Assembly (NCBI GenBank): GCA_030429705.1
Contig: JAUIES010000002.1
Coordinates: forward strand, 1-64,000
DNA length: 64,000 bases
Origin: Phycisphaerae bacterium
GTDB taxonomy: Bacteria > Planctomycetota > Phycisphaerae > Phycisphaerales > UBA1924
Direction: 5' to 3'
Shown: piece after piece, positions 1,524 to 12,118 of the stretch
Layout of the letters: every line of letters starts with the position of its first letter
Position numbering within the stretch: the stretch's first letter is position 1
The notes under the pieces: generated by a model
The model's input: only the letters and a program-made list of their open reading frames with translations
The model's database searches: none
What the model was told of the DNA's origin: nothing
Program-made: the position numbers and the translations under genes

Positions 1524-1946
1524 TCAGACGGAAATTCTAGATCGCGCCTGGGTCCACATTTCTCTCTGCTCTGCCCATTCGATCTGCGATGCGATTGGTC
1601 GCAGGTCACGCTCAGTGATGGGATCTCGACCCTCAGAGACGCGTTCGAGACTGAGAAGGGCTTCCTGGATGTCGGGCGCGAGGTGCAAGAGGTTCATGAT
1701 CTGCGTCACTCGGGCTCGAGTTACGTGGCCAAGACACGCCAATTCGGCTTGGTCGGTCACCGAACCGTTTGCAAGCAGACGCTCGAATCGGATGGCGAGT
1801 GCCATGAGTTTGGCGATCCGAGGCCTGCGCCCAGCGATCACGACAGGCTGGGGCGCGGGACCCACTCGAAGTTCACGTCGCCCTCGACCGCTGGTCTCGA
1901 AGTGCACTCGCGTCGTGACGGTCCTTCCTTGGCTCTGTATGGTCAT
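1524..1946 (-). CDS. small ParB/KorB-type HTH protein, recombinase-associated
   Basis: 140 aa. Motif DQAELACLGHVTRARVTQIMNLLHLAPDIQEAL resembles the ParB HTH. Overlaps the recombinase stop by 4 nt, suggesting translational coupling. Confidence 0.5.
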   Translation of the reverse strand: MTIQSQGRTVTTRVHFETSGRGRRELRVGPAPQPVVIAGRRPRIAKLMALAIRFERLLANGSVTDQAELACLGHVTRARVTQIMNLLHLAPDIQEALLSLERVSEGRDPITERDLRPIASQIEWAEQREMWTQARSRISV

Positions 1947-3364
1947 GCGGCATCCTCTTCGAAATTCGGCTCGATCAGATCATGGAATGTCAGACTCACG
2001 GACTCGTGCTCGGCATCCCACGAGATGCACTTCACCACCGCGTGAATGAGGTGCTCATGCTCACGCTGGGTCAGCGCCTCCCACACTTGGTCAAACATCT
2101 GCACCGCCCCCATGAGTTCGTCGCGGTCGATGTCCGTGTTGGGGTCCCGTGCACGAAGTTGAATTTCGGCGATATTCACGATCGCGGATGCAGTCGCCTC
2201 ATCGGTCGCCAGCACACGGATCTGATCGATGACAAACTGCTCCAGATCTCCGGCGGGCAATGCTGGGCTTGGACACGACGCCCACCCCTGGGCTTGGGCT
2301 TTTCGGCACACGTAGTAGTGGTAACGCTTGGTCGCCTTTCCCTTACGCACACTTGAGAAGTGATGCACCATCGCGCAATCACAGGCCTCGCACCGCACCA
2401 GTCCTTTAAGCAATGCACCATGCCGGTTTCGGATGCGTGAGCCGCCGGTGCGACCATTTAGCGAGAGCTGGGCACGCACGCGGTCATAGACCTCGATATC
2501 CACGATGGCTCCATGCTCTCCCTCGAAGATGTCGTCGTGGTGCCGCACTTTGCCGATGTAGCCCACATTGGTCAACATGGCGAAGACCGCGCCCTTGTCG
2601 AGCGTCTTCCCGCCCTGCGGTTTCCCCGCCTTTGATGTCCACGACTTTGTGGTCCAGCCGCGTTTCTGACACTCCTGGACTACAGGCATAAGTGAACCGA
2701 GCGTCAGGTAGAGGTCGTACACCTCACGGACGCGTTTCGCTTCTGGCTCATTCACAATAAGCTTCGAGCCGCCCGGCCCGGGTACCAAGTCGTAGCCGAG
2801 CAAGGGCCTTCCGCCAGCCCACTTGCCCTTGCGTCGCGCAGCGGCAATCTTGTCGCGTGTGCGTTCCGAAATGATCTCGCGTTCAAACTGGGCGAAGCTG
2901 AGCAGGATGTTGAGGGTGAGTCGACCCATTGAATGCGTCGTGTTGAACTGCTGGGTCACCGAGACAAACGACACGCCGTGCTTGTCGAAGGTCTCCATCA
3001 GCCGCGAAAAGTCCATCAGCGAGCGGCTGAGCCGATCGACCTTGTAGACGACCACGCAGTCGACCATGCCGGCTTCGATGTCAATCATCAGCCGCTTGAG
3101 AGCTGGCCGTTCAATATTGCCGCCAGTGAAACCGCCATCGTTGTACTGTTCCTCGTTGCACACCCAGCCTTCGTTTTTCTGGCTAGCGATGTACGACTCG
3201 CCGCTGTCGCGCTGAGCATCGAGTGAGTTGAACTCGAGCTCCAGACCTTCCTCGGTGCTCTTGCGCGTGTAGATGGCGCACCGGATGACTTTGTCTGACT
3301 GACTCTTCACCGTCCGCCCTTTCGAGCCTTCTGCTTGAGGCCAAAGAACAGAAAGCCGTTCCAA
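1943..3364 (-). CDS. large serine recombinase (resolvase/invertase N-domain, recombinase domain, zinc ribbon)
   Basis: 473 aa. N-terminal catalytic region (CAIYTRKST...DAQR) contains a Ser. Also VYKVDRLSRS, the recombinase domain, and a Cys cluster CEACDC...YYVC. Confidence 0.9.
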   Translation of the reverse strand: MERLSVLWPQAEGSKGRTVKSQSDKVIRCAIYTRKSTEEGLELEFNSLDAQRDSGESYIASQKNEGWVCNEEQYNDGGFTGGNIERPALKRLMIDIEAGMVDCVVVYKVDRLSRSLMDFSRLMETFDKHGVSFVSVTQQFNTTHSMGRLTLNILLSFAQFEREIISERTRDKIAAARRKGKWAGGRPLLGYDLVPGPGGSKLIVNEPEAKRVREVYDLYLTLGSLMPVVQECQKRGWTTKSWTSKAGKPQGGKTLDKGAVFAMLTNVGYIGKVRHHDDIFEGEHGAIVDIEVYDRVRAQLSLNGRTGGSRIRNRHGALLKGLVRCEACDCAMVHHFSSVRKGKATKRYHYYVCRKAQAQGWASCPSPALPAGDLEQFVIDQIRVLATDEATASAIVNIAEIQLRARDPNTDIDRDELMGAVQMFDQVWEALTQREHEHLIHAVVKCISWDAEHESVSLTFHDLIEPNFEEDAA

Positions 3365-3867
3365 TGGGAGCCGGTGATGGCGTGAGCCACGGCGCTGAGC
3401 GAGCGATACACCTGGCCTTGATAGTCGAAGCCGTGGGGGAGGACCAGGACCCGATGCTCTACGCCGTTGTGGCTTCGGGTGAGGACGGCACCCGGCAAGG
3501 GCAGCCGTTGATCGCTTCGCGCCAGCGGGCCCGTGACGGTCTGTGAGCCACCTTGGGAAGAAACGGGCTCACGAGGTGGACGAGCCCGCAGGTCGGCGTC
3601 GTCGGCGATATCAGCGGCAAGACGGCGCGACCGTGCAACCGCACGCTCAGCGAGATCGCCCTCGGCCCGCAACTGAAGCCGCCACGCGATCCTCCGCCGC
3701 ATCCACTGGCAGTTGCCGGATCGTGTCGGCTCACCGATCACTTCGACATACCGCTCACGCAGTTGCTTCGCGGTCATGTGTTCGAGGGCTTCGATTGCTT
3801 GAATGACTTCATCCGTCATGGAGTACCTCCGGGTCAGCGTTCTTTGGGCGTTCACCGTCCGGGACAC
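3307..3867 (-). CDS. DUF2924 family protein (typical partner of large serine recombinases)
   Basis: Conserved N-terminus MTDEVIQAIEALEHMTAKQLRERY and C-terminal FGLKQK. Overlaps the recombinase start. The true start may be the internal Met at about 3819. Confidence 0.75.
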   Translation of the reverse strand: MSRTVNAQRTLTRRYSMTDEVIQAIEALEHMTAKQLRERYVEVIGEPTRSGNCQWMRRRIAWRLQLRAEGDLAERAVARSRRLAADIADDADLRARPPREPVSSQGGSQTVTGPLARSDQRLPLPGAVLTRSHNGVEHRVLVLPHGFDYQGQVYRSLSAVAHAITGSHWNGFLFFGLKQKARKGGR

Positions 3868-4906: not shown

Positions 4907-6517
4907 CTACATGCCGGCATTCACGTCATCCCATGACAATTCAAACTTCGCAAGGTACTTGCGAAGACGATCCGAGTCGTTCACAGACGTGCGTCGTTCT
5001 CGGGTCGCCGCGAAGAGTGTTCGACCCGCTTCAGATAGCGAATGTGATCTTTGGCAAACCTGAATGACTGCTTCGAGTTGAACGCGGTCGAAGAGGTCTA
5101 TGTTCTCGACGCTGGCAGGTCCGAGCAACCTGTTGAGTTCCGGGTGTTCACCCGCGGTGTGTTGATACCATGACCTTCTGAGCCGTTCGGTCTCCTCGGT
5201 CACAACGTCTCTGGAGATTCGGCCTCCAGGTGCAAGCGTTGCCATTCGTGTGACCGCGGCGCCAAGATCGCGAAAATTGCCCGGCCACAAACCTGCGGGC
5301 CCGATCGCGAATTCGAGGAACTGTTTTCGTGCCTCGGTGCTCAATCTGGTTTGTTGCCCGCGATCCCTCGCATATCTCTGCAGTTCAAACTCCAGGTTTG
5401 GCTCAATGTCCTCAGGGCGATCCCGAAGAGCTGGTAACTCAAAAGTCCACAGGTTGATTCGGGCGAGCAAGTCTTCGCGGAAGTCGCCGCTTCGGACTCT
5501 GCCTGCGAGATCTCTATTCGTTCCGACAATCAATTGAAAATCGCTCTGAACCTCTGAATCCGCGCCGAACGGAAGGAACTTTCGTTCTTCTATTGCTCGA
5601 AGCAGCATGGCTTGCTCGTCGAGGCCGAGTTCACCGATCTCGTCAAGAAAGAGTACTCCACCATCTGCAGAGAGCAAAAGCCCGGACCGATCTGAAGCCG
5701 CTCCGGTGAACGCGCCCTTCCTGTGACCGAAGAGCGTGGACATTGCACCATCGCCTCTTAGTGTGGCGCAATTCACTTCGATCAGATTGCCAGCAACAAG
5801 TCGACGGTGTTTTCGGAGGTCGTAGATTCGACCGGCAAGCCGCGACTTACCCGCACCTGTCGGACCGGTGATCAGCATTGGATCGGTGGTTCGTGCGGCG
5901 ACATGTTCGATACGCTCGATCAGTCGATTAAACGCTGCGTTTCTGGTTTCAATGCCGCCCTTGAGCGACGTGATTGCGTCGGTGTGCTCACGCTCGAATC
6001 TCGCGGCGAGTCGATCGTACCGGGACAGATCGAGGTCGATGATACTAAAGGACCCTAATCCATCAGCGGCCTTTCGGGGCGGGCTGGTTTGTATCAAGCG
6101 AGCGGGGAAATAGCGGGATTCTGTGAGCAGAAAGTTGCAAATCTGAGCAACATGAGTGCCGGTGGTGATATGGACCAAGTAGTCCTCTCGGTCGGTATCA
6201 AACTGATATTCGGTTGCAAACTCGTGCAGAACGCTGTAGACCTCTTCAAAGTCCCAGGGGTCGTTCATGTCAACGGTGTGCTGAACGACTTCGGTTTCGG
6301 GTGAGACCGACGCAATGTCCTCGATAATGGTCTGTGCCAATCTGGTCGCTCGTTTGCCGTGGATCAGTTCGAGTCGATCAACGACAAAGTTGTCTTGTTG
6401 ACAAAGTGAAACCGTGGGGCGCCAGCGTTCCCACCGCTTCGGACCTTTGCCGGTGTCAAGTGTTGTGCCGAGGATCCCAAAAACGACCCTCGGCCGAATT
6501 GCCAGCGTGATTGCCAT
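4907..6517 (-). CDS. rtcR: sigma-54-dependent transcriptional regulator RtcR (CARF domain, AAA+ domain, HTH)
   Basis: 536 aa. Near-collinear with E. coli RtcR: N-terminal CARF region, GPTGAGKS Walker A, GAFTGA-type loop (GAFTGAASDR), C-terminal HTH, and ADRLRKYLAKFELSW near the end. Confidence 0.92.
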   Translation of the reverse strand: MAITLAIRPRVVFGILGTTLDTGKGPKRWERWRPTVSLCQQDNFVVDRLELIHGKRATRLAQTIIEDIASVSPETEVVQHTVDMNDPWDFEEVYSVLHEFATEYQFDTDREDYLVHITTGTHVAQICNFLLTESRYFPARLIQTSPPRKAADGLGSFSIIDLDLSRYDRLAARFEREHTDAITSLKGGIETRNAAFNRLIERIEHVAARTTDPMLITGPTGAGKSRLAGRIYDLRKHRRLVAGNLIEVNCATLRGDGAMSTLFGHRKGAFTGAASDRSGLLLSADGGVLFLDEIGELGLDEQAMLLRAIEERKFLPFGADSEVQSDFQLIVGTNRDLAGRVRSGDFREDLLARINLWTFELPALRDRPEDIEPNLEFELQRYARDRGQQTRLSTEARKQFLEFAIGPAGLWPGNFRDLGAAVTRMATLAPGGRISRDVVTEETERLRRSWYQHTAGEHPELNRLLGPASVENIDLFDRVQLEAVIQVCQRSHSLSEAGRTLFAATRERRTSVNDSDRLRKYLAKFELSWDDVNAGM

Positions 6518-6667: not shown

Positions 6668-6684
6668 TGGCACGTCTCGTGCAT
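6668..6684 (+). promoter_or_regulatory. sigma-54 (-24/-12) promoter TGGCACG-tctc-GTGCAT driving the rtc operon
   Basis: Perfect -24 element TGGCACG. The 4-nt spacer is exact. -12 element GTGCA versus consensus TTGCW. GG/GC spacing is correct. It lies divergent from rtcR, about 35 nt upstream of a strong SD and ATG at 6718. An AT-rich region (6520-6640) upstream is a plausible enhancer/IHF zone. Confidence 0.65.
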
Positions 6685-6717: not shown

Positions 6718-6954
6718 ATGGCACACCGAACGCTCACCAAGACGCACCGCCGCCTCTCGGCAAACGAGATTCGGCGCGTATACCTCACCGAACGCACCAC
6801 GGCGGTTTCGTACTTTTGCCCATTCGGCGACGCGGAGACGGCCGTCACCGCGCATCCATTTGTCATGCCTCGCCGTCCGGCGACGCGGCGCCCGTGGGCA
6901 AGCCGCGTTTCGCGACTACGGGTTATGCCGGCAAGTCATGACATGTCGCGTTAG
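6718..6954 (+). CDS. candidate small, highly basic ORF (78 aa), first cistron of the sigma-54 transcript
   Basis: Strong SD AAAGGAGA 7 nt upstream of ATG. Arg-rich product MAHRTLTKTHRRLSANEIRR.... The stop overlaps the first 10 nt of the tRNA-Ile. Could be a GC-rich artefact. Confidence 0.25.
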   Translation: MAHRTLTKTHRRLSANEIRRVYLTERTTAVSYFCPFGDAETAVTAHPFVMPRRPATRRPWASRVSRLRVMPASHDMSR

Positions 6955-7021
6955 CTCAGATTGGTAGAGCACCGAGCTGATAACTCGGCAGTCGCCGGTT
7001 CGACTCCGGCACGCAACACCA
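6945..7021 (+). tRNA. tRNA-Ile (anticodon GAU), CCA encoded
   Basis: Cloverleaf folded by hand: D-arm GCTC/AGATTGGTA/GAGC; anticodon arm CCGAG-CTGATAA-CTCGG; variable loop CAGTC; T-arm GCCGG-TTCGACT-CCGGC; acceptor GTCGCGT/ACGCAAC with a single C3:A70 mismatch; discriminator A plus CCA. Confidence 0.75.
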
Positions 7022-7057
7022 GGCAGGCCGGGAGGCCCGGGGTTCGAATCCCCACCA
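7022..7057 (+). ncRNA. orphan tRNA T-arm-like hairpin (GGGG-TTCGAAT-CCCC followed by ACCA) immediately 3' of tRNA-Ile
   Basis: Contains CCGGG-AGG-CCCGG then GGGGTTCGAATCCCC-ACCA. No D-arm or anticodon arm. Not identical to the tRNA-Ile 3' half. Confidence 0.3.
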
Positions 7058-7434
7058 GATCTGGAATCTGGCTCATTCGTCCATGGTGGGTCGAGGGCTC
7101 ACTAAACACCTGTTTGCCGTTGAGCCAAAGACGAGTTGTGCGATCCGCGTCCAACCGTCGATGGCAAGACACCGGCAATGCAGTCTGAGGGTCGGCGGAT
7201 ACCGATGCCTCGAATGATGCCGCGCAACGCGGGCGTCTGATCTCTCTGGCGTGACCGATGGTCGTGACTTGAGTGAAAGACCACCGCGTTCAGTGAGGTA
7301 TCACGTGAGGTTTCTGAAGTCGATCCCCGCTGCGGGACCGGGTGAATAGGCGCGCGGAAGCTCTCGACTCGCATTGCAAGTTTGAAGTTTGTTTTGACTG
7401 AAGCACCTCATACACCATCGAAAGGAACGCAGTT

Positions 7435-8562
7435 ATGAGAAAGACCATTCGTATCCGTAAGCATGAACTCGGCCTGTGGTTCCGCCACGGCGATCTTTAC
7501 CGGGTCCTGGATCCGGGCGTTCACCGCGTGTGGCTCACGCCAATCGGGCACGCAGATTCATTCGAGATTGTCGACACACTGCGTCCTCAGTTTGACCACG
7601 CAAGACTGAAGACACTCGTTCGCGATGAGATACTTTCAGATCGGCTCACGATTGTTGACTTGAAAGACGAACAGCGCGCCCTCGTCTGGGCGGATGGTCG
7701 ATTGATCGCCATCCTCGGATCGGGAACGCACGCGTTCTGGAACGAACCGGCCCGGATTGAGGTTGAACTGTTCGATGTCAACGATGGTCGATTCGAACAT
7801 CCACAGGCAGAGTCGATATTGAACTTCCCCGGAGGCGTGAAGTTCTTCGATGGCGTTCGCGTTGATGCCCACGAGCGGGCCATGATTTTTCGTGATGGTG
7901 TTCTTGTTGAGCAACTGGATGCGGGGCACTATGTGTTCTGGCGTGGTGGGCCGAAGGTTAGCTGGAAGCCCGTGGATCTACGGGAGCAGGTCGCCGACAT
8001 CCAAGGACAGGAGATCATGTCCGCGGACAAGGTCACGCTACGCGTGAATCTCGTTGTGACGCACCGAGTCTTTGACCCAGCCAAGGCGGTCACGGAGGTT
8101 GCCGATTGGACGCAAACCTTGTATCGAGAGGCCCAGCTTGAGCTTCGAGTTGCCGTCGGAGGACGAACACTCGAAAGGCTGCTCGCCGACAAGGACGAGG
8201 TGGGTAGCGAGATCAAGAATCGACTCGCCAATCGTGCAGCAAAATTTGGTGTGGCGATCTCTGGGGTCGGTCTCCGCGACATCATTCTCCCCGGGGAGAT
8301 GAAAGAGATCCTCAACGAGGTGATCGTTGCGCAGAAGCAATCCGAGGCGAACCTCATCCGGCGCCGCGAGGAGACCGCTGCGGCGCGTAGTCAGGTGAAC
8401 ACAGCCAAATTGCTGGCGGAGAATCCAGTGCTCGCTCGGATGAAGGAACTCGAAGCTCTTCAGGACATCCTCAAAGGTACTGAAGCGACCTTCGTGCTTG
8501 GATCGGGTGATCTCGCGCAGCAGATTGGAAGTTTGATCCGCAAAGAGACGGCTGATTCATGA
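7435..8562 (+). CDS. slipin/SPFH (band-7, stomatin-like) family protein
   Basis: 375 aa. SPFH core (KVTLRVNLVVTHRV...EAQLELRVAVGGRTLERLL...VAISGVGLRDIILPGEMKEILNEVIVAQKQSEANLIRRREETAAARSQVNTAKLLAENPVLARMKELEALQDI). Confidence 0.85.
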   Translation: MRKTIRIRKHELGLWFRHGDLYRVLDPGVHRVWLTPIGHADSFEIVDTLRPQFDHARLKTLVRDEILSDRLTIVDLKDEQRALVWADGRLIAILGSGTHAFWNEPARIEVELFDVNDGRFEHPQAESILNFPGGVKFFDGVRVDAHERAMIFRDGVLVEQLDAGHYVFWRGGPKVSWKPVDLREQVADIQGQEIMSADKVTLRVNLVVTHRVFDPAKAVTEVADWTQTLYREAQLELRVAVGGRTLERLLADKDEVGSEIKNRLANRAAKFGVAISGVGLRDIILPGEMKEILNEVIVAQKQSEANLIRRREETAAARSQVNTAKLLAENPVLARMKELEALQDILKGTEATFVLGSGDLAQQIGSLIRKETADS

Positions 8563-8606: not shown

Positions 8607-8678
8607 GACCTCGTAGCTCTGTGGCAGAGCGATGTCCACATAAGGCATGTGTCGCAGGTTCGAGTCCTGCCGAAGCTA
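8607..8678 (+). ncRNA. degenerate tRNA-like element / pseudo-tRNA with CAU anticodon
   Basis: D-arm GCTC-TGTGGCA-GAGC; anticodon arm ATGTC-CACATAA-GGCAT with CAU anticodon but A33; T-arm GCAGG-TTCGAGT-CCTGC. Acceptor GACCTCG/CGAAGCT has two mismatches plus one G-U pair. No CCA. Confidence 0.5.
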
Positions 8679-8708: not shown

Positions 8709-10205
8709 ATGAGCGAATCAAAGAGTCAGTTCGTTGAAACCGGAGAGGCGACCGCGATCCTCCCATTGCCGAACGGGCAGAAGCCCGTGACAGTCATCGG
8801 TACGCCTGCGATTCGCGCTACATTTGACGCAGGTTGCTTGAAGCAAACGGTCAACTCGGCAATGGCGCCAGGAGTATCTCACCTCGTGCTCAATCCCGAT
8901 GCCCACATCGGGTACGGAGCGCCGGTCGGGTGTGTGATGGCGAGTCCGACACATATCTATCCCGGGCCGGTCGGGGTCGACATCAAGTGTTCCATGAGTT
9001 TGCTCGCGGTCGATCTCGATGAAGATGCAATCCGCGACGCTCGAACGCGCCGTGCAATCATCAACGCGATCTGTGAGCGCACGCCGACCGGTACTGGAAA
9101 AGGCCAGCGCAGTGTTCCGATGTCGCGAAGTGTCTCGGATCTTCTCGGGTTTCAAGTTGTCACTGAAGGCGCAACCGAATCGGTGTGCAACGCGCTGGGT
9201 ATTCCTCCAGCATGGGCGGATCGTTGTGAAGACAGCCAGCATTCGGGACATGATGGGACGACAGATGCGCTGCGGGCGCGCCTCGAACTGCATCGGCAAA
9301 ACGGCCGATTCGACGAACGATTCCCAAGTAAGATCCGTCAACTCGGTTCCTACGGAGGTGGGAACCACTTCGGTGAGTGCGAAGTTGTGCGCGTTGGCGA
9401 AGGAGATCGTGCTCGACAGGCGGCAGAAGTGTTCGGCCTCCGCGACGGTGGCGTTGCGTTTCTTTCGCACTGTGGTTCACGAGGCCTTGGGCATGACTTG
9501 GCAGCGGGTCAGTTCAAGTCGCTTGAGCAGCATTTCACGCAGTGGGGTATCCCATTGCCCGGCGGCGACAAGCAACTCGTCCACGCACCTCTCGGCAGTG
9601 ACGAAGCCAACAGCTATCTCGACGACATGGCGATTGGTGCCAACTTCGCGACGGTGAATCATTTGCTCATCAACGCGCTCGTCCTCGAAGCATTTCAAAC
9701 GGTTTTTCCCGGAGTGGATGGGCGTCTCGTGTACTTTATCAGCCACAACATCGCGCGAGAAGAGATCGTGGACAACACGCCGCAGTGGGTGCATCGGAAG
9801 GGCGCAACTCGGGCTTTCCCGGGCGGGCATCACGCGCTCAAAAGTACACCGTTCGAATCGACTGGGCATCCGATCCTGCTTCCGGGGAATCCGCAGGCGG
9901 GCTCGGCGGTGATGGTCGCGAATGCTGGCGCAGAAGCTTCGTGTTTCAGTGTCAACCATGGCGCGGGCCGCGTCATGGGTCGTAAGGCGGCGAAGCGAGC
10001 GCTCGACCAAGATGCAATCGACGCATCGTTCGAAGACCGAGACATTCTGACCAATTGTCGGAACTACCCGGTCGACGAAGCGCCAGCAGCGTACAAGGAT
10101 TTTGATGAAGTGCTCCGATCAGTCGAACTTGCAGGACTTGCGAGTGAAGTCGCAAGACTCGATGCTAGGTTTGTCATTAAGGATGGAGACAAAGCGGATG
10201 ATTAA
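8709..10205 (+). CDS. rtcB: RNA-splicing ligase RtcB
   Basis: Motifs collinear with E. coli RtcB: HIGYGAPVGCV, GVDIKCSM, SYGGGNHFGECE, HCGSRGLGH, FSVNHGAGRVMGRKAAKRAL, PAAYKDFDEV. Start chosen at ATG 8709 (SD GGAAGGA). The upstream in-frame GTG at 8649 lies inside the tRNA-like element. Confidence 0.95.
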   Translation: MSESKSQFVETGEATAILPLPNGQKPVTVIGTPAIRATFDAGCLKQTVNSAMAPGVSHLVLNPDAHIGYGAPVGCVMASPTHIYPGPVGVDIKCSMSLLAVDLDEDAIRDARTRRAIINAICERTPTGTGKGQRSVPMSRSVSDLLGFQVVTEGATESVCNALGIPPAWADRCEDSQHSGHDGTTDALRARLELHRQNGRFDERFPSKIRQLGSYGGGNHFGECEVVRVGEGDRARQAAEVFGLRDGGVAFLSHCGSRGLGHDLAAGQFKSLEQHFTQWGIPLPGGDKQLVHAPLGSDEANSYLDDMAIGANFATVNHLLINALVLEAFQTVFPGVDGRLVYFISHNIAREEIVDNTPQWVHRKGATRAFPGGHHALKSTPFESTGHPILLPGNPQAGSAVMVANAGAEASCFSVNHGAGRVMGRKAAKRALDQDAIDASFEDRDILTNCRNYPVDEAPAAYKDFDEVLRSVELAGLASEVARLDARFVIKDGDKADD

Positions 10206-11217
10206 CATCGACGGCAGTCAAGGTGAGGGGGGCGGACAGGTATTGCGCACCTCTCTCGCATTATCGACAGTAACCGGTATGCCATTTCGAATTGAGAGCA
10301 TACGGGCAGGCCGTCCCAGGCCAGGTCTGATGCGGCAGCACTTGACATCGGTTCAGGCCGCATGTGCGGTATGCAGCGGTACGGCTGCTGGAGCCGAGTT
10401 GGGTTCGAGTACTCTTGAGTTCACACCCGGCGAGGTGCGTGGGGGGGACTACGCATTCGCGATTGGAACGGCGGGCAGCACTACGCTTGTTTTGCAGACA
10501 ATACTGCCCGCATTGATGACCGCGCGAGGCCCTTCGACTATAACCATATCCGGCGGAACGCACAACATGCATGCACCGACTGTACACTTTCTTGAACGTG
10601 CATTCCTTCCAATAGTGCGCCGGATGGGACCGTCAGTATGTATTGATCTGCTGCGACATGGTTTCCATCCGGCCGGCGGTGGCGTGATATGTGTCAATAT
10701 AGAACCGGTGCTTCGATTGCAACCCATCGAGTTGCTTGACGCAGCGCCTGTCACCGCACGACGTGCCATCGTGACAATCTCTGGTCTACCGGGTTCGATC
10801 GCAAAGCGGGAATTGGCGGTCGTTCGCAATGAGCTCGGTTGGTCGAAAGAATGCCTGCAGATCAATCAGATCAGCGACGAGGCGGGGCCGGGAAACATTT
10901 TGAGCATAGAGATCGAACGCGAAGATTTGACCGAGGTATTTACGGGTTTTGGCGAGCGCGGCGTGTCCGCGGAGCGAGTCGCAGCGAGGACGATCAAGGA
11001 AGTGCGGCGATATCTGGATTCAAATGTACTTGTTTGGCGTCATCTCGCGGACCAGTTGATGCTACCCATGGCGATTGCGGGAGGAGGGGCCTTTCAGACC
11101 TGTTCACTCAGCGATCATGCAACAACAAACGCAAAGGTGATCGAGTCGTTCCTGAGCTTGAAACTCCAAAGTGATGATAACGATGATGGAACATGCTGTG
11201 TGAGGATTCTCAGTTAG
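10198..11217 (+). CDS. rtcA: RNA 3'-terminal phosphate cyclase RtcA
   Basis: 339 aa starting MINIDGSQGEGGGQVLRTSLALS, collinear with RtcA. Start overlaps the rtcB stop in ATGATTAA (translational coupling). Confidence 0.9.
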   Translation: MINIDGSQGEGGGQVLRTSLALSTVTGMPFRIESIRAGRPRPGLMRQHLTSVQAACAVCSGTAAGAELGSSTLEFTPGEVRGGDYAFAIGTAGSTTLVLQTILPALMTARGPSTITISGGTHNMHAPTVHFLERAFLPIVRRMGPSVCIDLLRHGFHPAGGGVICVNIEPVLRLQPIELLDAAPVTARRAIVTISGLPGSIAKRELAVVRNELGWSKECLQINQISDEAGPGNILSIEIEREDLTEVFTGFGERGVSAERVAARTIKEVRRYLDSNVLVWRHLADQLMLPMAIAGGGAFQTCSLSDHATTNAKVIESFLSLKLQSDDNDDGTCCVRILS

Positions 11218-12040: not shown

Positions 12041-12046
12041 TTGAAG

Positions 12047-12118
12047 CTCCCCGAGTAGGACTCGAACCTACAACCTAGCGGTTAACAGCCGCTCGCTCTA
12101 CCATTGAGCTATCGGGGA
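12047..12118 (-). tRNA. tRNA-Asn (anticodon GUU), CCA not encoded
   Basis: Reverse complement folds: acceptor TCCCCGA/TCGGGGA; D-arm GCTC-AATGGTA-GAGC; anticodon arm AGCGG-CTGTTAA-CCGCT; T-arm GTAGG-TTCGAGT-CCTAC; discriminator G. Confidence 0.8.

What the first reader, a model, noticed from the sequence alone, without database searches (positions are those of the whole stretch)
6945..7057. tRNA-Ile(GAU) with C3:A70 acceptor mismatch inside the rtc leader, followed by a free-standing T-arm mimic ending in ACCA
The 77-nt cloverleaf is convincing. It sits between the sigma-54 promoter and the slipin gene, not in an rRNA operon. Right after its CCA comes CCGGG-AGG-CCCGG and then GGGG-TTCGAAT-CCCC-ACCA: a T-stem-loop plus ACCA with no other tRNA parts. 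That could be a minihelix-like CCA-adding/RNase P substrate or a processing signal. The C3:A70 mismatch hints that the tRNA is a mimic rather than a canonical isoacceptor.
Basis: seen in the sequence. Interest (0 to 1): 0.6.

Follow-up and report, generated by a model that had tools for sequence, protein, structure and literature searches.

The report
tRNA mimic RNA beside slipin gene
The "tRNA-Ile" is real in shape but is most likely not a working tRNA: it is one module of a long folded RNA, with a conserved second T-arm, that always sits just upstream of a vault-protein-like slipin gene in RNA-repair loci, a little-studied class predicted in 2016.

Summary
The cloverleaf (6945-7021), its C3:A70 mismatch and the T-arm at 7039-7053 are all there, downstream of a sigma-54-type promoter and upstream of the slipin gene.

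Comparison with 33 related loci shows a mimic rather than an isoacceptor:
- The body is conserved, but the "anticodon" loop has 30 different sequences in 34 loci and is 5-8 nt long.
- The outer acceptor pairs are often broken, and CCA is not conserved.
- It is closer to positional orthologs carrying other "anticodons" than to tRNA-Ile genes.

The second T-arm is real and is the most conserved part of the element.

The "ACCA" is the 5' strand of the next hairpin and occurs in only 5 of 34 loci, so the minihelix/CCA reading fails.

A further ~290-nt domain with covariation support follows. The whole RNA tracks the slipin gene, not RtcR or RtcB.

This fits the predicted "band-7-associated tRNA" (Burroughs & Aravind 2016), here in an extended form. 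The slipin model resembles major vault protein. The most likely function is as the RNA partner of that protein in tRNA repair; this is inferred, not shown.

The parts
6668..6683 (+). Sigma-54-type promoter-like site TGGCACgtctcGTGCA, divergent from rtcR.
   Evidence: Read from the sequence. The TGGCAC...TGC block is conserved in the RtcR-containing loci. Function is not tested.
6900..6944 (+). Conserved 5' motif (GCGTKYCGCGAC-ACGGGTTCTRCCGG type) just upstream of the tRNA-like module.
   Evidence: Kept in nearly all Phycisphaerae-type loci and in distant loci L034, L037, L038 and L051. A possible 3-4 bp long-range pairing of 6918-6921 with 7172-7175 is only suggestive.
6945..7021 (+). tRNA-like module.
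- Acceptor 6945-6951/7011-7017, with C6947:A7015 (C3:A70)
- D arm 6954-6970
- Anticodon arm 6972-6988, loop CTGATAA, 'GAT' at 6979-6981
- T arm 6994-7010
- A73 at 7018, CCA at 7019-7021
   Evidence: ARAGORN; Rfam tRNA 63.8 bits; covariation in 34 loci.
7022..7025 (+). Linker GGCA holding the conserved GG of the 'GGYA' motif.
   Evidence: G7022 is invariant in the 23-sequence alignment A1. The motif is visible in A4.
7026..7037 (+). Hairpin H1: GGCC-GGGA-GGCC (GNRA-type tetraloop).
   Evidence: 89.5% of cells are paired, and all 5 model pairs show changes on both sides across 34 loci.
7039..7053 (+). Second T-arm (T-arm2): GGGG-TTCGAAT-CCCC.
   Evidence: 100% paired in 34 loci. It is the lowest-entropy part of the composite, 0.21-0.28 bits. 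The motif count exceeds chance.
7055..7071 (+). Hairpin H3: CCAGA-TCTGGAA-TCTGG.
   Evidence: RNAfold of the tails of all 34 loci shows a hairpin directly after T-arm2. It is either the CCAGA/TCTGG type or a GCCC-CGGTTA-GGGC type.
7086..7372 (+). Roughly 290-nt structured domain.
- P1, the closing helix: 7086-7096/7362-7372
- P2: 7189-7196/7319-7326
- P3: 7204-7211/7307-7314
- P4: 7328-7330/7342-7344
- Conserved blocks such as CGGCGGATACCG and CTSAAGYC
   Evidence: RNAalifold on 35 loci. 88.9% of cells are paired against 72.6% in shuffles and 31-46% with slid partners. The covariation score is 0.578 against 0.270, with 0 of 500 shuffles as high.
7435..8562 (+). Slipin/SPFH (Band_7) gene, 375 aa, with no membrane segment. 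The predicted layout is three beta repeats, an SPFH core and a long helix.
4907..6517 (-). RtcR, the sigma-54 activator with a CARF-type RtcR domain.
   Evidence: Pfam RtcR 8e-84 and Sigma54_activat 1.2e-45.
8709..11217 (+). RtcB (8709-10205) and RtcA (about 10102-11217; start uncertain).
   Evidence: Pfam RtcB 5.8e-101 and RTC 3.2e-76. A 498-aa RtcB was called on the Logan contig.

Best explanation
Window 6945-7057 is not a decoding tRNA-Ile gene with a stray T-arm. It is the tRNA-mimic core of a long structured RNA (about 6900-7372). That RNA is encoded immediately upstream of a slipin/SPFH gene and, in this genome, inside the RtcR/sigma-54-controlled rtc operon leader.

[quoted passage not shown] Here it takes an extended form: tRNA-like cloverleaf, GGYA linker, small hairpin, second T-arm, further hairpin, then a ~290-nt closed domain.

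Most likely mechanism (inferred, not shown): the RNA is transcribed with the slipin mRNA and serves as the RNA partner of the cytosolic slipin, which resembles major vault protein. The tRNA-like elbow and the second T-arm would act as tRNA-like handles that bring or hold tRNA-handling factors (RtcB/RtcA or their damaged-tRNA substrates) at a slipin oligomer. This parallels Y RNA with Ro60, and vault RNA with MVP. The anticodon loop and the acceptor end are not used for decoding or charging.
For: Shown:
1. There is exactly one composite hit (at least 73.6 bits) per locus in 34 loci. All lie roughly 340-480 nt upstream of the slipin start.
2. Structure: 92.4% of cells are paired against 71.4% in shuffles. 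The covariation score is 0.522 against 0.160 (0 of 500 shuffles as high). The D stem is invariant. The anticodon stem, T stem, H1 and T-arm2 are all supported.
3. T-arm2 has the lowest entropy of the composite. The anticodon loop is as variable as the linkers, and its length is 5-8 nt.
4. The RNA follows the slipin gene whether or not RtcR/RtcB/RtcA are adjacent. Three locus classes show this.
5. An RNA-first metagenome scan recovered the same architecture ~340-370 nt upstream of slipins that are only 33-37% identical.
6. A Burkholderia slipin locus has a tRNA-like element with a 6-nt loop, a GNRA hairpin, and an extra acceptor-plus-T-arm element.
7. The ~290-nt downstream domain is supported by covariation.
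8. There is no intrinsic-terminator-like site on the + strand between the promoter and the slipin gene.
9. The slipin has no membrane segment and matches MVP over the repeats, shoulder and helix.

From the literature: b7a-tRNA was predicted next to Band-7 and RtcB, is thought to be redundant with YrlA, and had not been validated experimentally (bioRxiv 10.1101/312249).
Against: - No expression, end-mapping or binding data exist, so RNA-protein association rests on gene linkage only.
- The window copy happens to keep a fully canonical anticodon loop (C32 U33 GAU A37 A38), A73 and an encoded CCA. Charging by IleRS cannot be excluded for this particular copy.
- GAT is also the commonest loop type in the family (6 of 34). 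This is compatible with descent from, or residual use as, tRNA-Ile.
- The original description of b7a-tRNA (PMC5062991) could not be read. I cannot say how much of the extended architecture was already reported.
- The MVP resemblance comes from a predicted model (pTM 0.56).
Confidence: 0.6

Rival explanations
1. It is a working, damage-inducible extra tRNA-Ile(GAU). It would be co-transcribed with the rtc operon and processed out by RNase P and RNase Z, like the operonic tRNAs of long tRNA arrays. The T-arm behind it would be incidental.
For: - The window copy has a canonical 7-nt loop, U33, A37, A73 and CCA.
- Related loci carry true-looking tRNA arrays around the slipin and RtcB genes, scoring 41-67 bits.
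- In Anabaena a tRNA operon is co-regulated with rtcB (PMC8421152).
Against: - Positional orthologs have 30 different loops, 9 of them not 7 nt long.
- The outer acceptor pairs are frequently broken.
- CCA is not conserved, and the bona fide tRNA-Asn of the window has no encoded CCA.
- The window copy is closer to orthologs with other "anticodons" than to tRNA-Ile genes.
- The adjoining T-arm2 is more conserved than the tRNA itself.
Confidence: 0.1
2. It is a decoy or bait for tRNA-targeting (anticodon) nucleases. The mimic would soak up the toxin. Alternatively, its cleavage would yield 2',3'-cyclic-phosphate fragments that feed back on the RtcR CARF domain.
For: - The anticodon loop is hypervariable on a conserved body.
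- A sponge role has been proposed for operonic tRNAs (PMC8421152).
Against: - A decoy should copy real anticodon loops. Nine of 34 loops have the wrong length and U33 is not kept.
- Loop variability equals that of unconstrained linkers, so neutral drift explains it.
- The RNA is also kept at slipin genes that have no RtcR.
- This reading does not explain T-arm2 or the 290-nt domain.
Confidence: 0.15
3. It is a cis-acting processing or stability signal in the leader. This is the first reader's idea: a tRNA-like punctuation mark plus a T-arm/ACCA minihelix recognised by RNase P, RNase Z or the CCA-adding enzyme.
For: - It lies in the 5' leader with no terminator before the slipin gene.
- T-arms are read by these enzymes (general knowledge).
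Against: - T-arm2 has only 4 bp and no stacked acceptor helix.
- ACCA is in 5 of 34 loci and is base-paired in H3.
- The degenerate acceptor stem should weaken RNase P/Z recognition (inference).
- The elaborate conserved structure downstream exceeds what a cleavage signal needs.
Confidence: 0.1
4. It is debris: a decaying tRNA gene plus a fragment of a second tRNA, or a tRNA 3'-end duplication left by an integrating element.
For: - Many metagenomic matches to the two-T-loop pattern are plain duplications of a tRNA 3' end.
- A serine recombinase lies 3 kb upstream.
- Relatives have tRNA arrays at this place.
Against: - T-arm2 (GGGGTTCGAATCCCC) is not a copy of T-arm1 (GCCGGTTCGACTCCGGC).
- The same arrangement is kept in 34 genomes whose slipins are 56-80% identical, and again in a lineage at 33-37% identity. 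Compensatory changes occur in H1 and in the stems.
Confidence: 0.03

Closest known systems
[quoted passage not shown]
   Same: A tRNA-like non-coding RNA encoded next to a Band-7/SPFH gene and an RtcB ligase gene, and strongly resembling a real tRNA. It has not been validated experimentally.
   Different: Here the tRNA-like part is one module of a much longer conserved RNA: a 5' motif, a second T-arm after a covarying hairpin, and a ~290-nt closed domain. I could not read the original paper, so I cannot say whether any of this was described.
YrlA, the bacterial Y RNA with a tRNA-like domain, partner of Rsr/Ro60 in rsr-yrlBA-rtcBA operons
   Same: A tRNA mimic encoded in an RtcR-controlled RtcB/RtcA operon next to a scaffold-type protein. 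It has D-loop/T-loop elbow mimicry and is not used for decoding.
   Different: There is no TROVE/Ro60 gene here and no Rfam Y RNA match, even at E up to 10. This RNA has a full anticodon arm and a second T-arm, and its partner gene is a slipin.
Vault particle: major vault protein with vault RNA
   Same: The predicted slipin aligns with MVP across beta repeats, the SPFH-like shoulder and the long helix. It has no membrane anchor and is linked to a small structured RNA.
   Different: The slipin has 375 aa and three repeats, against about 860 aa and nine repeats (MVP figures are from my own knowledge). No cage has been shown. The RNA is tRNA-like, unlike vault RNA. The link is by gene neighbourhood only.
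Long tRNA arrays (L-arrays), e.g. the Anabaena trn operon co-regulated with rtcB (PMC8421152)
   Same: tRNA-type genes tied to RtcB and to translational stress. Relatives of this locus hold up to 27 tRNA genes around the slipin and RtcB genes.
   Different: The window has no array. It has only the mimic and one degenerate tRNA-like gene. Unlike array tRNAs, the mimic has no conserved anticodon.

Membership tests
Canonical tRNA-Ile(GAU) | Cloverleaf with standard D and T loops | tested here: met
   ARAGORN, and Rfam tRNA at 63.8 bits.
Canonical tRNA-Ile(GAU) | Fully paired 7-bp acceptor stem | tested here: not met
   C3:A70 in the window. Across the family, pairs 1:72, 2:71 and 3:70 are unpaired in 14/29, 20/29 and 11/30 sequences.
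Canonical tRNA-Ile(GAU) | Anticodon and 7-nt loop conserved among orthologs | tested here: not met
   30 different loops in 34 positional orthologs. Lengths are 5-8 nt and GAT occurs in only 6.
Canonical tRNA-Ile(GAU) | Greater similarity to other tRNA-Ile genes than to non-Ile genes | tested here: not met
   61-70% identity to array tRNA-Ile(GAT), against 82-89% to positional orthologs with CAT, GCA or 6-nt loops.
Canonical tRNA-Ile(GAU) | Aminoacylation by IleRS; being the only tRNA-Ile(GAU) copy in the genome | not testable with these tools
   Only 64 kb of the genome is held and there are no biochemical data.
b7a-tRNA (Band-7-associated tRNA-like RNA) | tRNA-like RNA encoded adjacent to a Band-7/SPFH gene | tested here: met
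   T-arm2 ends 381 nt upstream of the Band_7 gene, on the same strand. The same placement holds in 33 further loci.
b7a-tRNA (Band-7-associated tRNA-like RNA) | Neighbourhood includes an RtcB RNA ligase | tested here: met
   RtcB and RtcA lie downstream and RtcR upstream. This is true of 17 related loci, a divergent RtcB sits in the array loci, and none is within 4 kb in some others.
b7a-tRNA (Band-7-associated tRNA-like RNA) | Any sequence or structure criteria set in the original description | not tested
   PMC5062991 is not held. Only the summary in bioRxiv 10.1101/312249 was read.
YrlA / bacterial Y RNA | Adjacent Rsr/Ro60 (TROVE) gene | tested here: not met
   No TROVE domain in any operon protein.
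YrlA / bacterial Y RNA | Match to the Rfam Y RNA models | tested here: not met
   Only tRNA is matched, at the gathering threshold and at E up to 10.
Minihelix substrate of CCA-adding enzyme / RNase P | Stacked acceptor plus T helix (~12 bp) ending in a single-stranded NCCA | tested here: not met
   The stem has 4 bp. ACCA is paired in hairpin H3 and is present in 5 of 34 loci.
tRNA 3'-end duplication (integration scar) | The second T-arm repeats the sequence of the tRNA's own T-arm and acceptor 3' strand | tested here: not met
   The two T-arms differ. The arrangement is conserved across genomes. True duplications look different.

The most novel reading that the evidence does not exclude
The whole stretch from about 6900 to 7372 is a single structured RNA of at least 470 nt, built from tRNA-derived modules (one full tRNA elbow plus a second conserved T-arm; some relatives have a third T-arm) and a 290-nt domain. 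It would be the dedicated RNA subunit of a bacterial vault-like assembly formed by an MVP-like cytosolic slipin. That particle would capture or hand over damaged tRNAs to RtcB/RtcA. This would make it a bacterial counterpart of vault and Ro-Y RNA particles with a defined, testable client.
Probability: 0.2. Interest if true: 0.8.

Novelty: new variant of a known kind. Interest (0 to 1): 0.55.

Why it matters
Bacterial RtcB/RtcA repair operons are known to respond to damaged tRNAs. What their accessory proteins and RNAs (Ro60 with Y RNA, slipin with tRNA-like RNA) actually do is still open.

This locus gives a well-defined comparative model of the slipin-linked RNA. It shows which parts are under selection: the tRNA body and D/T-loop sequences, a second T-arm, and a large closed domain. 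It also shows which parts are not: the anticodon loop, the acceptor end and CCA.

It links that RNA to a soluble slipin whose predicted fold resembles the vault protein. That combination turns a vague "tRNA-like gene in the operon" into concrete experiments on RNA-protein particles in RNA repair.

It also warns annotators that this "tRNA-Ile" and its many differently named orthologs should not be counted as decoding tRNAs.

Tried and rejected
- Single-sequence folding of 6900-7105 was uninformative (z = -1.5) and did not return the cloverleaf. I relied on comparative analysis instead.
- Rfam has no family for the leader beyond tRNA. A 12-bit tmRNA T-arm match at 7039-7053 is far below threshold.
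- A strict sigma-54 regular expression found the promoter in only a few loci. The alignment showed it is conserved with variation.
- MAFFT misaligned the variable hairpin H1. I built a covariance model and re-aligned with it.
- The model also hits ordinary tRNAs and tandem tRNA pairs, at 71 bits or less in the slipin loci. It does not separate cleanly in the metagenome set.
- The RNA-first pattern (T-loop, N28-50, GGGGTTCGANTCCCC) is not specific. Most of the 120 metagenomic and 87 viral matches are tRNA 3'-end duplications or strings of T-arm-like hairpins without a slipin.
- The original Burroughs & Aravind paper could not be retrieved by DOI, PMC id or PubMed id.
- Further literature searches found nothing on slipin-RtcB RNAs.
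- No terminator was found that would make the RNA a separate transcript.
- I considered that the linker GG mimics D-loop G18-G19 for T-loop 2. I could not test it, and the geometry is doubtful.
- I considered a long-range pairing of the 5' motif with the large domain. The evidence is only suggestive.

Full report
**What is in the sequence.**
ARAGORN finds a 77-nt tRNA-Ile(GAT) at 6945-7021. The Rfam tRNA model scores it at 63.8 bits, with one non-standard pair, C3:A70. Thirty-one nt after T-loop 1 comes GGGG-TTCGAAT-CCCC (7039-7053). The T-loop motif GGTTCRANTCC occurs four times in the 64-kb window against 0.34 expected: in the three tRNA-like genes and here.

- RtcR lies at 4907-6517(-).
- A TGGCAC-N5-GTGCA site lies at 6668-6683.
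- A Band_7/slipin gene lies at 7435-8562, followed by RtcB and RtcA.
- No terminator-like site lies on the + strand of the leader.

Two details need correction. The hairpin CCGGG-AGG-CCCGG overlaps the T-stem and is the wrong register. The ACCA is followed by GATCTGGAATCTGG, so CCAGA (7055-7059) pairs with TCTGG (7067-7071).

**Related loci.**
A scan of one genome per species with the slipin protein returned 53 loci, mostly Phycisphaerales and other Planctomycetota. ARAGORN finds a tRNA-like gene at the same place, 430-540 nt upstream of the slipin start, in most of them. It names them Met, Ile, Asn, Trp, Val, Leu, Cys, Lys, Asp, Tyr, Phe or Glu, or leaves them undetermined because of odd loops.

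I built a covariance model of the cloverleaf, linker, hairpin H1 and second T-arm. It finds exactly one strong match per locus in the window and 33 loci (73.6-114.6 bits; window 102.8). Ordinary tRNAs there score 71 bits or less.

On the resulting 34-sequence alignment:

| Measure | Observed | 500 shuffles |
|---|---|---|
| Cells forming a standard pair | 92.4% | 71.4% |
| Covariation score | 0.522 | 0.160 |

Sliding the partners by 1-3 columns gives 35-48% paired, and no shuffle reaches the observed values. By helix:
- The D stem is invariant.
- The anticodon stem is 98.8% paired, with changes on both sides at all five pairs.
- The T stem is 100% paired.
- H1 is 89.5% paired, with changes on both sides at all five pairs. 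It is often a 4-bp stem with a GNRA loop.
- The second T-arm is 100% paired.

**A mimic, not an isoacceptor.**
- The acceptor helix is only 74.6% paired. Pairs 1:72, 2:71 and 3:70 fail in 14/29, 20/29 and 11/30 sequences. The window's C3:A70 is one instance of a family-wide loose acceptor end. L031 keeps the same C:A, while L001-L004 have U:A at 3:70 but mismatches elsewhere.
- The anticodon loop has 30 different sequences in 34 loci. Lengths are 7 nt in 25 loci, 6 nt in 7, and 5 nt and 8 nt in one each. Its entropy (1.32 bits) equals that of the unconstrained linker and tail. GAT-type loops are the commonest (6 of 34), which may reflect ancestry.
- The window copy is 82-89% identical to positional orthologs with CAT, GCA or 6-nt loops. 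It is only 61-70% identical to tRNA-Ile(GAT) genes in arrays.
- The CCA after the cloverleaf is not conserved. The window's bona fide tRNA-Asn has no encoded CCA.

**The second T-arm.**
It is the most conserved part of the composite, at 0.21-0.28 bits per position against 0.44-0.66 for the tRNA's own T-arm.

What follows it varies: ACCA in 5 loci, CCGA in 5, and CCGC, CCGG, CTCT, GTCA, ATAT and others elsewhere. In every locus a further hairpin comes next, and in the window that hairpin uses the CCA. A 4-bp stem with no stacked acceptor helix and no conserved free NCCA is not a minihelix substrate.

It is also not an integration scar. It does not repeat the tRNA's own T-arm, and it is kept across genomes. 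Real 3'-end duplications found in metagenomes look different.

**The element is larger than the finding.**
Upstream lies a conserved motif (6900-6944) that persists even in distant loci.

Downstream, all 35 loci examined share a ~290-nt domain closed by an 11-bp long-range helix (window 7086-7096 with 7362-7372), with inner helices P2-P4. On this domain:

| Measure | Observed | 500 shuffles |
|---|---|---|
| Cells forming a standard pair | 88.9% | 72.6% |
| Covariation score | 0.578 | 0.270 |

Slid partners give 31-46% paired, and no shuffle reaches the observed values.

Many relatives carry a third T-arm module upstream of the cloverleaf (a long hairpin followed by GAGGGTTCGATTCCCTC). In the window's clade a small ORF and a plain hairpin take its place.

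**What the RNA goes with.**
tblastn of the operon proteins shows three locus types:
- RtcR | RNA | slipin | tRNAs | RtcB | RtcA. This is the window's type.
- RNA and slipin embedded in long tRNA arrays, with a divergent RtcB and no RtcR.
- RNA and slipin with no Rtc gene within 4 kb.

The constant partner is therefore the slipin gene.

Starting from the RNA instead, a metagenome scan for two T-loops 28-50 nt apart was unspecific. Thirteen of the 120 listed matches had a slipin gene downstream. They include a separate lineage whose slipins are only 33-37% identical, with the slipin start ~340-370 nt after T-arm2. That lineage has the same order of parts: cloverleaf, hairpin, GGTAAG, GNRA hairpin, GGGGTTCGAnTCCCC, hairpin.

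In Burkholderia cenocepacia, the slipin gene is preceded by a tRNA-like gene with a 6-nt loop, a GNRA hairpin, and an acceptor-plus-T-arm element just upstream. Planctomycetota, Holophagae and Acidobacteria loci outside Phycisphaerae have the cloverleaf without the second T-arm.

**Comparison with the literature.**
Burroughs and Aravind (2016) predicted a "band 7-associated tRNA" next to Band-7 and RtcB genes. They thought it functionally analogous to YrlA/Y RNA with Ro60. As of 2018 it had not been validated (bioRxiv 10.1101/312249). I could not obtain the original paper. Searches found no later work on it.

RtcR is activated by tRNA fragments with cyclic-phosphate ends (PMC7790460). In Anabaena a tRNA array is co-regulated with rtcB (PMC8421152).

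The window element meets the features of b7a-tRNA that I could check. It fails those of a canonical tRNA-Ile, of YrlA (no TROVE gene, no Rfam match), of a minihelix substrate and of an att-site duplication.

**The protein partner.**
The slipin has no hydrophobic segment. By sequence its core matches stomatin.

**Mechanism.**
- Shown: a conserved, structured, tRNA-mimicking RNA with a second T-arm, tied to a soluble slipin gene. In this genome it lies under an RtcR-type promoter.
- Inferred: it is the RNA partner of the slipin, and it offers tRNA-like handles to tRNA-handling enzymes or substrates of the RtcB/RtcA system.

I put about 0.85 on membership of the slipin-linked tRNA-mimic class and about 0.4 on the scaffold mechanism. 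The rivals are listed with their tests: an inducible true tRNA-Ile, a nuclease decoy or sensor, a processing signal, and debris.

**Verdict.**
The "mimic" idea is right and the "ACCA minihelix" idea is wrong. The element is a new, extended variant of a predicted but unstudied RNA class. It is moderately interesting in itself. It would be considerably more so if the slipin-RNA particle proves real.

Noticed in passing
window 7086-7372: A ~290-nt structured domain lies between the second T-arm and the slipin start. It is closed by an 11-bp long-range helix, is conserved in all 35 loci examined, and has no Rfam match.
   Followed up: yes
window 6718-6954: A small ORF of 78 aa has a strong AAAGGAG ribosome-binding site. 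Its TAG stop lies inside the 5' acceptor strand of the tRNA-like module. It is kept in frame (74-82 aa) in L001, L006, L007 and L031, with a shared N-terminal RRRL..SE motif. Its 3' half overlaps RNA motifs that are also conserved in loci without the ORF. It could be a leader peptide that couples translation to RNA folding, or chance in GC-rich DNA.
   Followed up: partly
window 8607-8678: A second, degenerate tRNA-like gene ('Met CAT', 41.3 bits) lies between the slipin gene and rtcB. It has two acceptor mismatches and A instead of U at position 33. Relatives have one to seven normal-looking tRNA genes at this spot.
   Followed up: partly
L022-L033, L046, L048, L052 (whole loci): Long arrays of up to 27 tRNA genes, all on one strand, surround the slipin gene, the mimic and a divergent RtcB. 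Their Rfam scores are 41-67 bits. This looks like a tRNA array fused to an RNA-repair module.
   Followed up: partly
window 7435-8562: The slipin is predicted to be soluble. It is built like a miniature major vault protein: three beta repeats, an SPFH shoulder and a long helix.
   Followed up: yes
window 1943-3867 and 12046-12118: A large serine recombinase and a DUF2924 protein lie about 1 kb beyond rtcR. A bona fide tRNA-Asn(GTT) lies just past rtcA on the opposite strand. The rtc locus may therefore sit on or beside a mobile element.
   Followed up: no
L056 3590-3750 (Burkholderia cenocepacia): Upstream of a slipin gene lie three elements in a row. First is a minihelix-like element (a 7-bp acceptor-type stem GGGGCGC/GCGCCCC enclosing a T-arm and followed by A). 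Next is a tRNA-like gene with a 6-nt loop. Last is a GNRA hairpin.
   Followed up: partly
L055 3472-6000 (E. coli STEC639): A slipin gene is paired with a nucleotidyltransferase gene next to lysC. A 530-nt upstream gap holds no detectable tRNA-like gene; the best model hit is 10 bits.
   Followed up: no
L126 and L148 (metagenome contigs): Upstream of distant slipin genes (26-35% identity) lies a T-arm followed by a tRNA-like element. In that element a D arm runs straight into a T-arm with no anticodon arm, reminiscent of the YrlA tRNA-like domain.
   Followed up: no
L102, L103, L113, L120, L122, L124 (metagenome contigs) and many viral contigs L178-L264: These carry strings of several T-arm-like hairpins a few tens of bases apart, without full tRNAs and without a slipin gene nearby.
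   Followed up: no
window 6918-6921 with 7172-7175: The 5' motif may pair over a long range with the large domain. 101 of 128 cells are paired, with C:G to U:A and A:U swaps, but the pairing is broken in L005, L017 and L018.
   Followed up: partly
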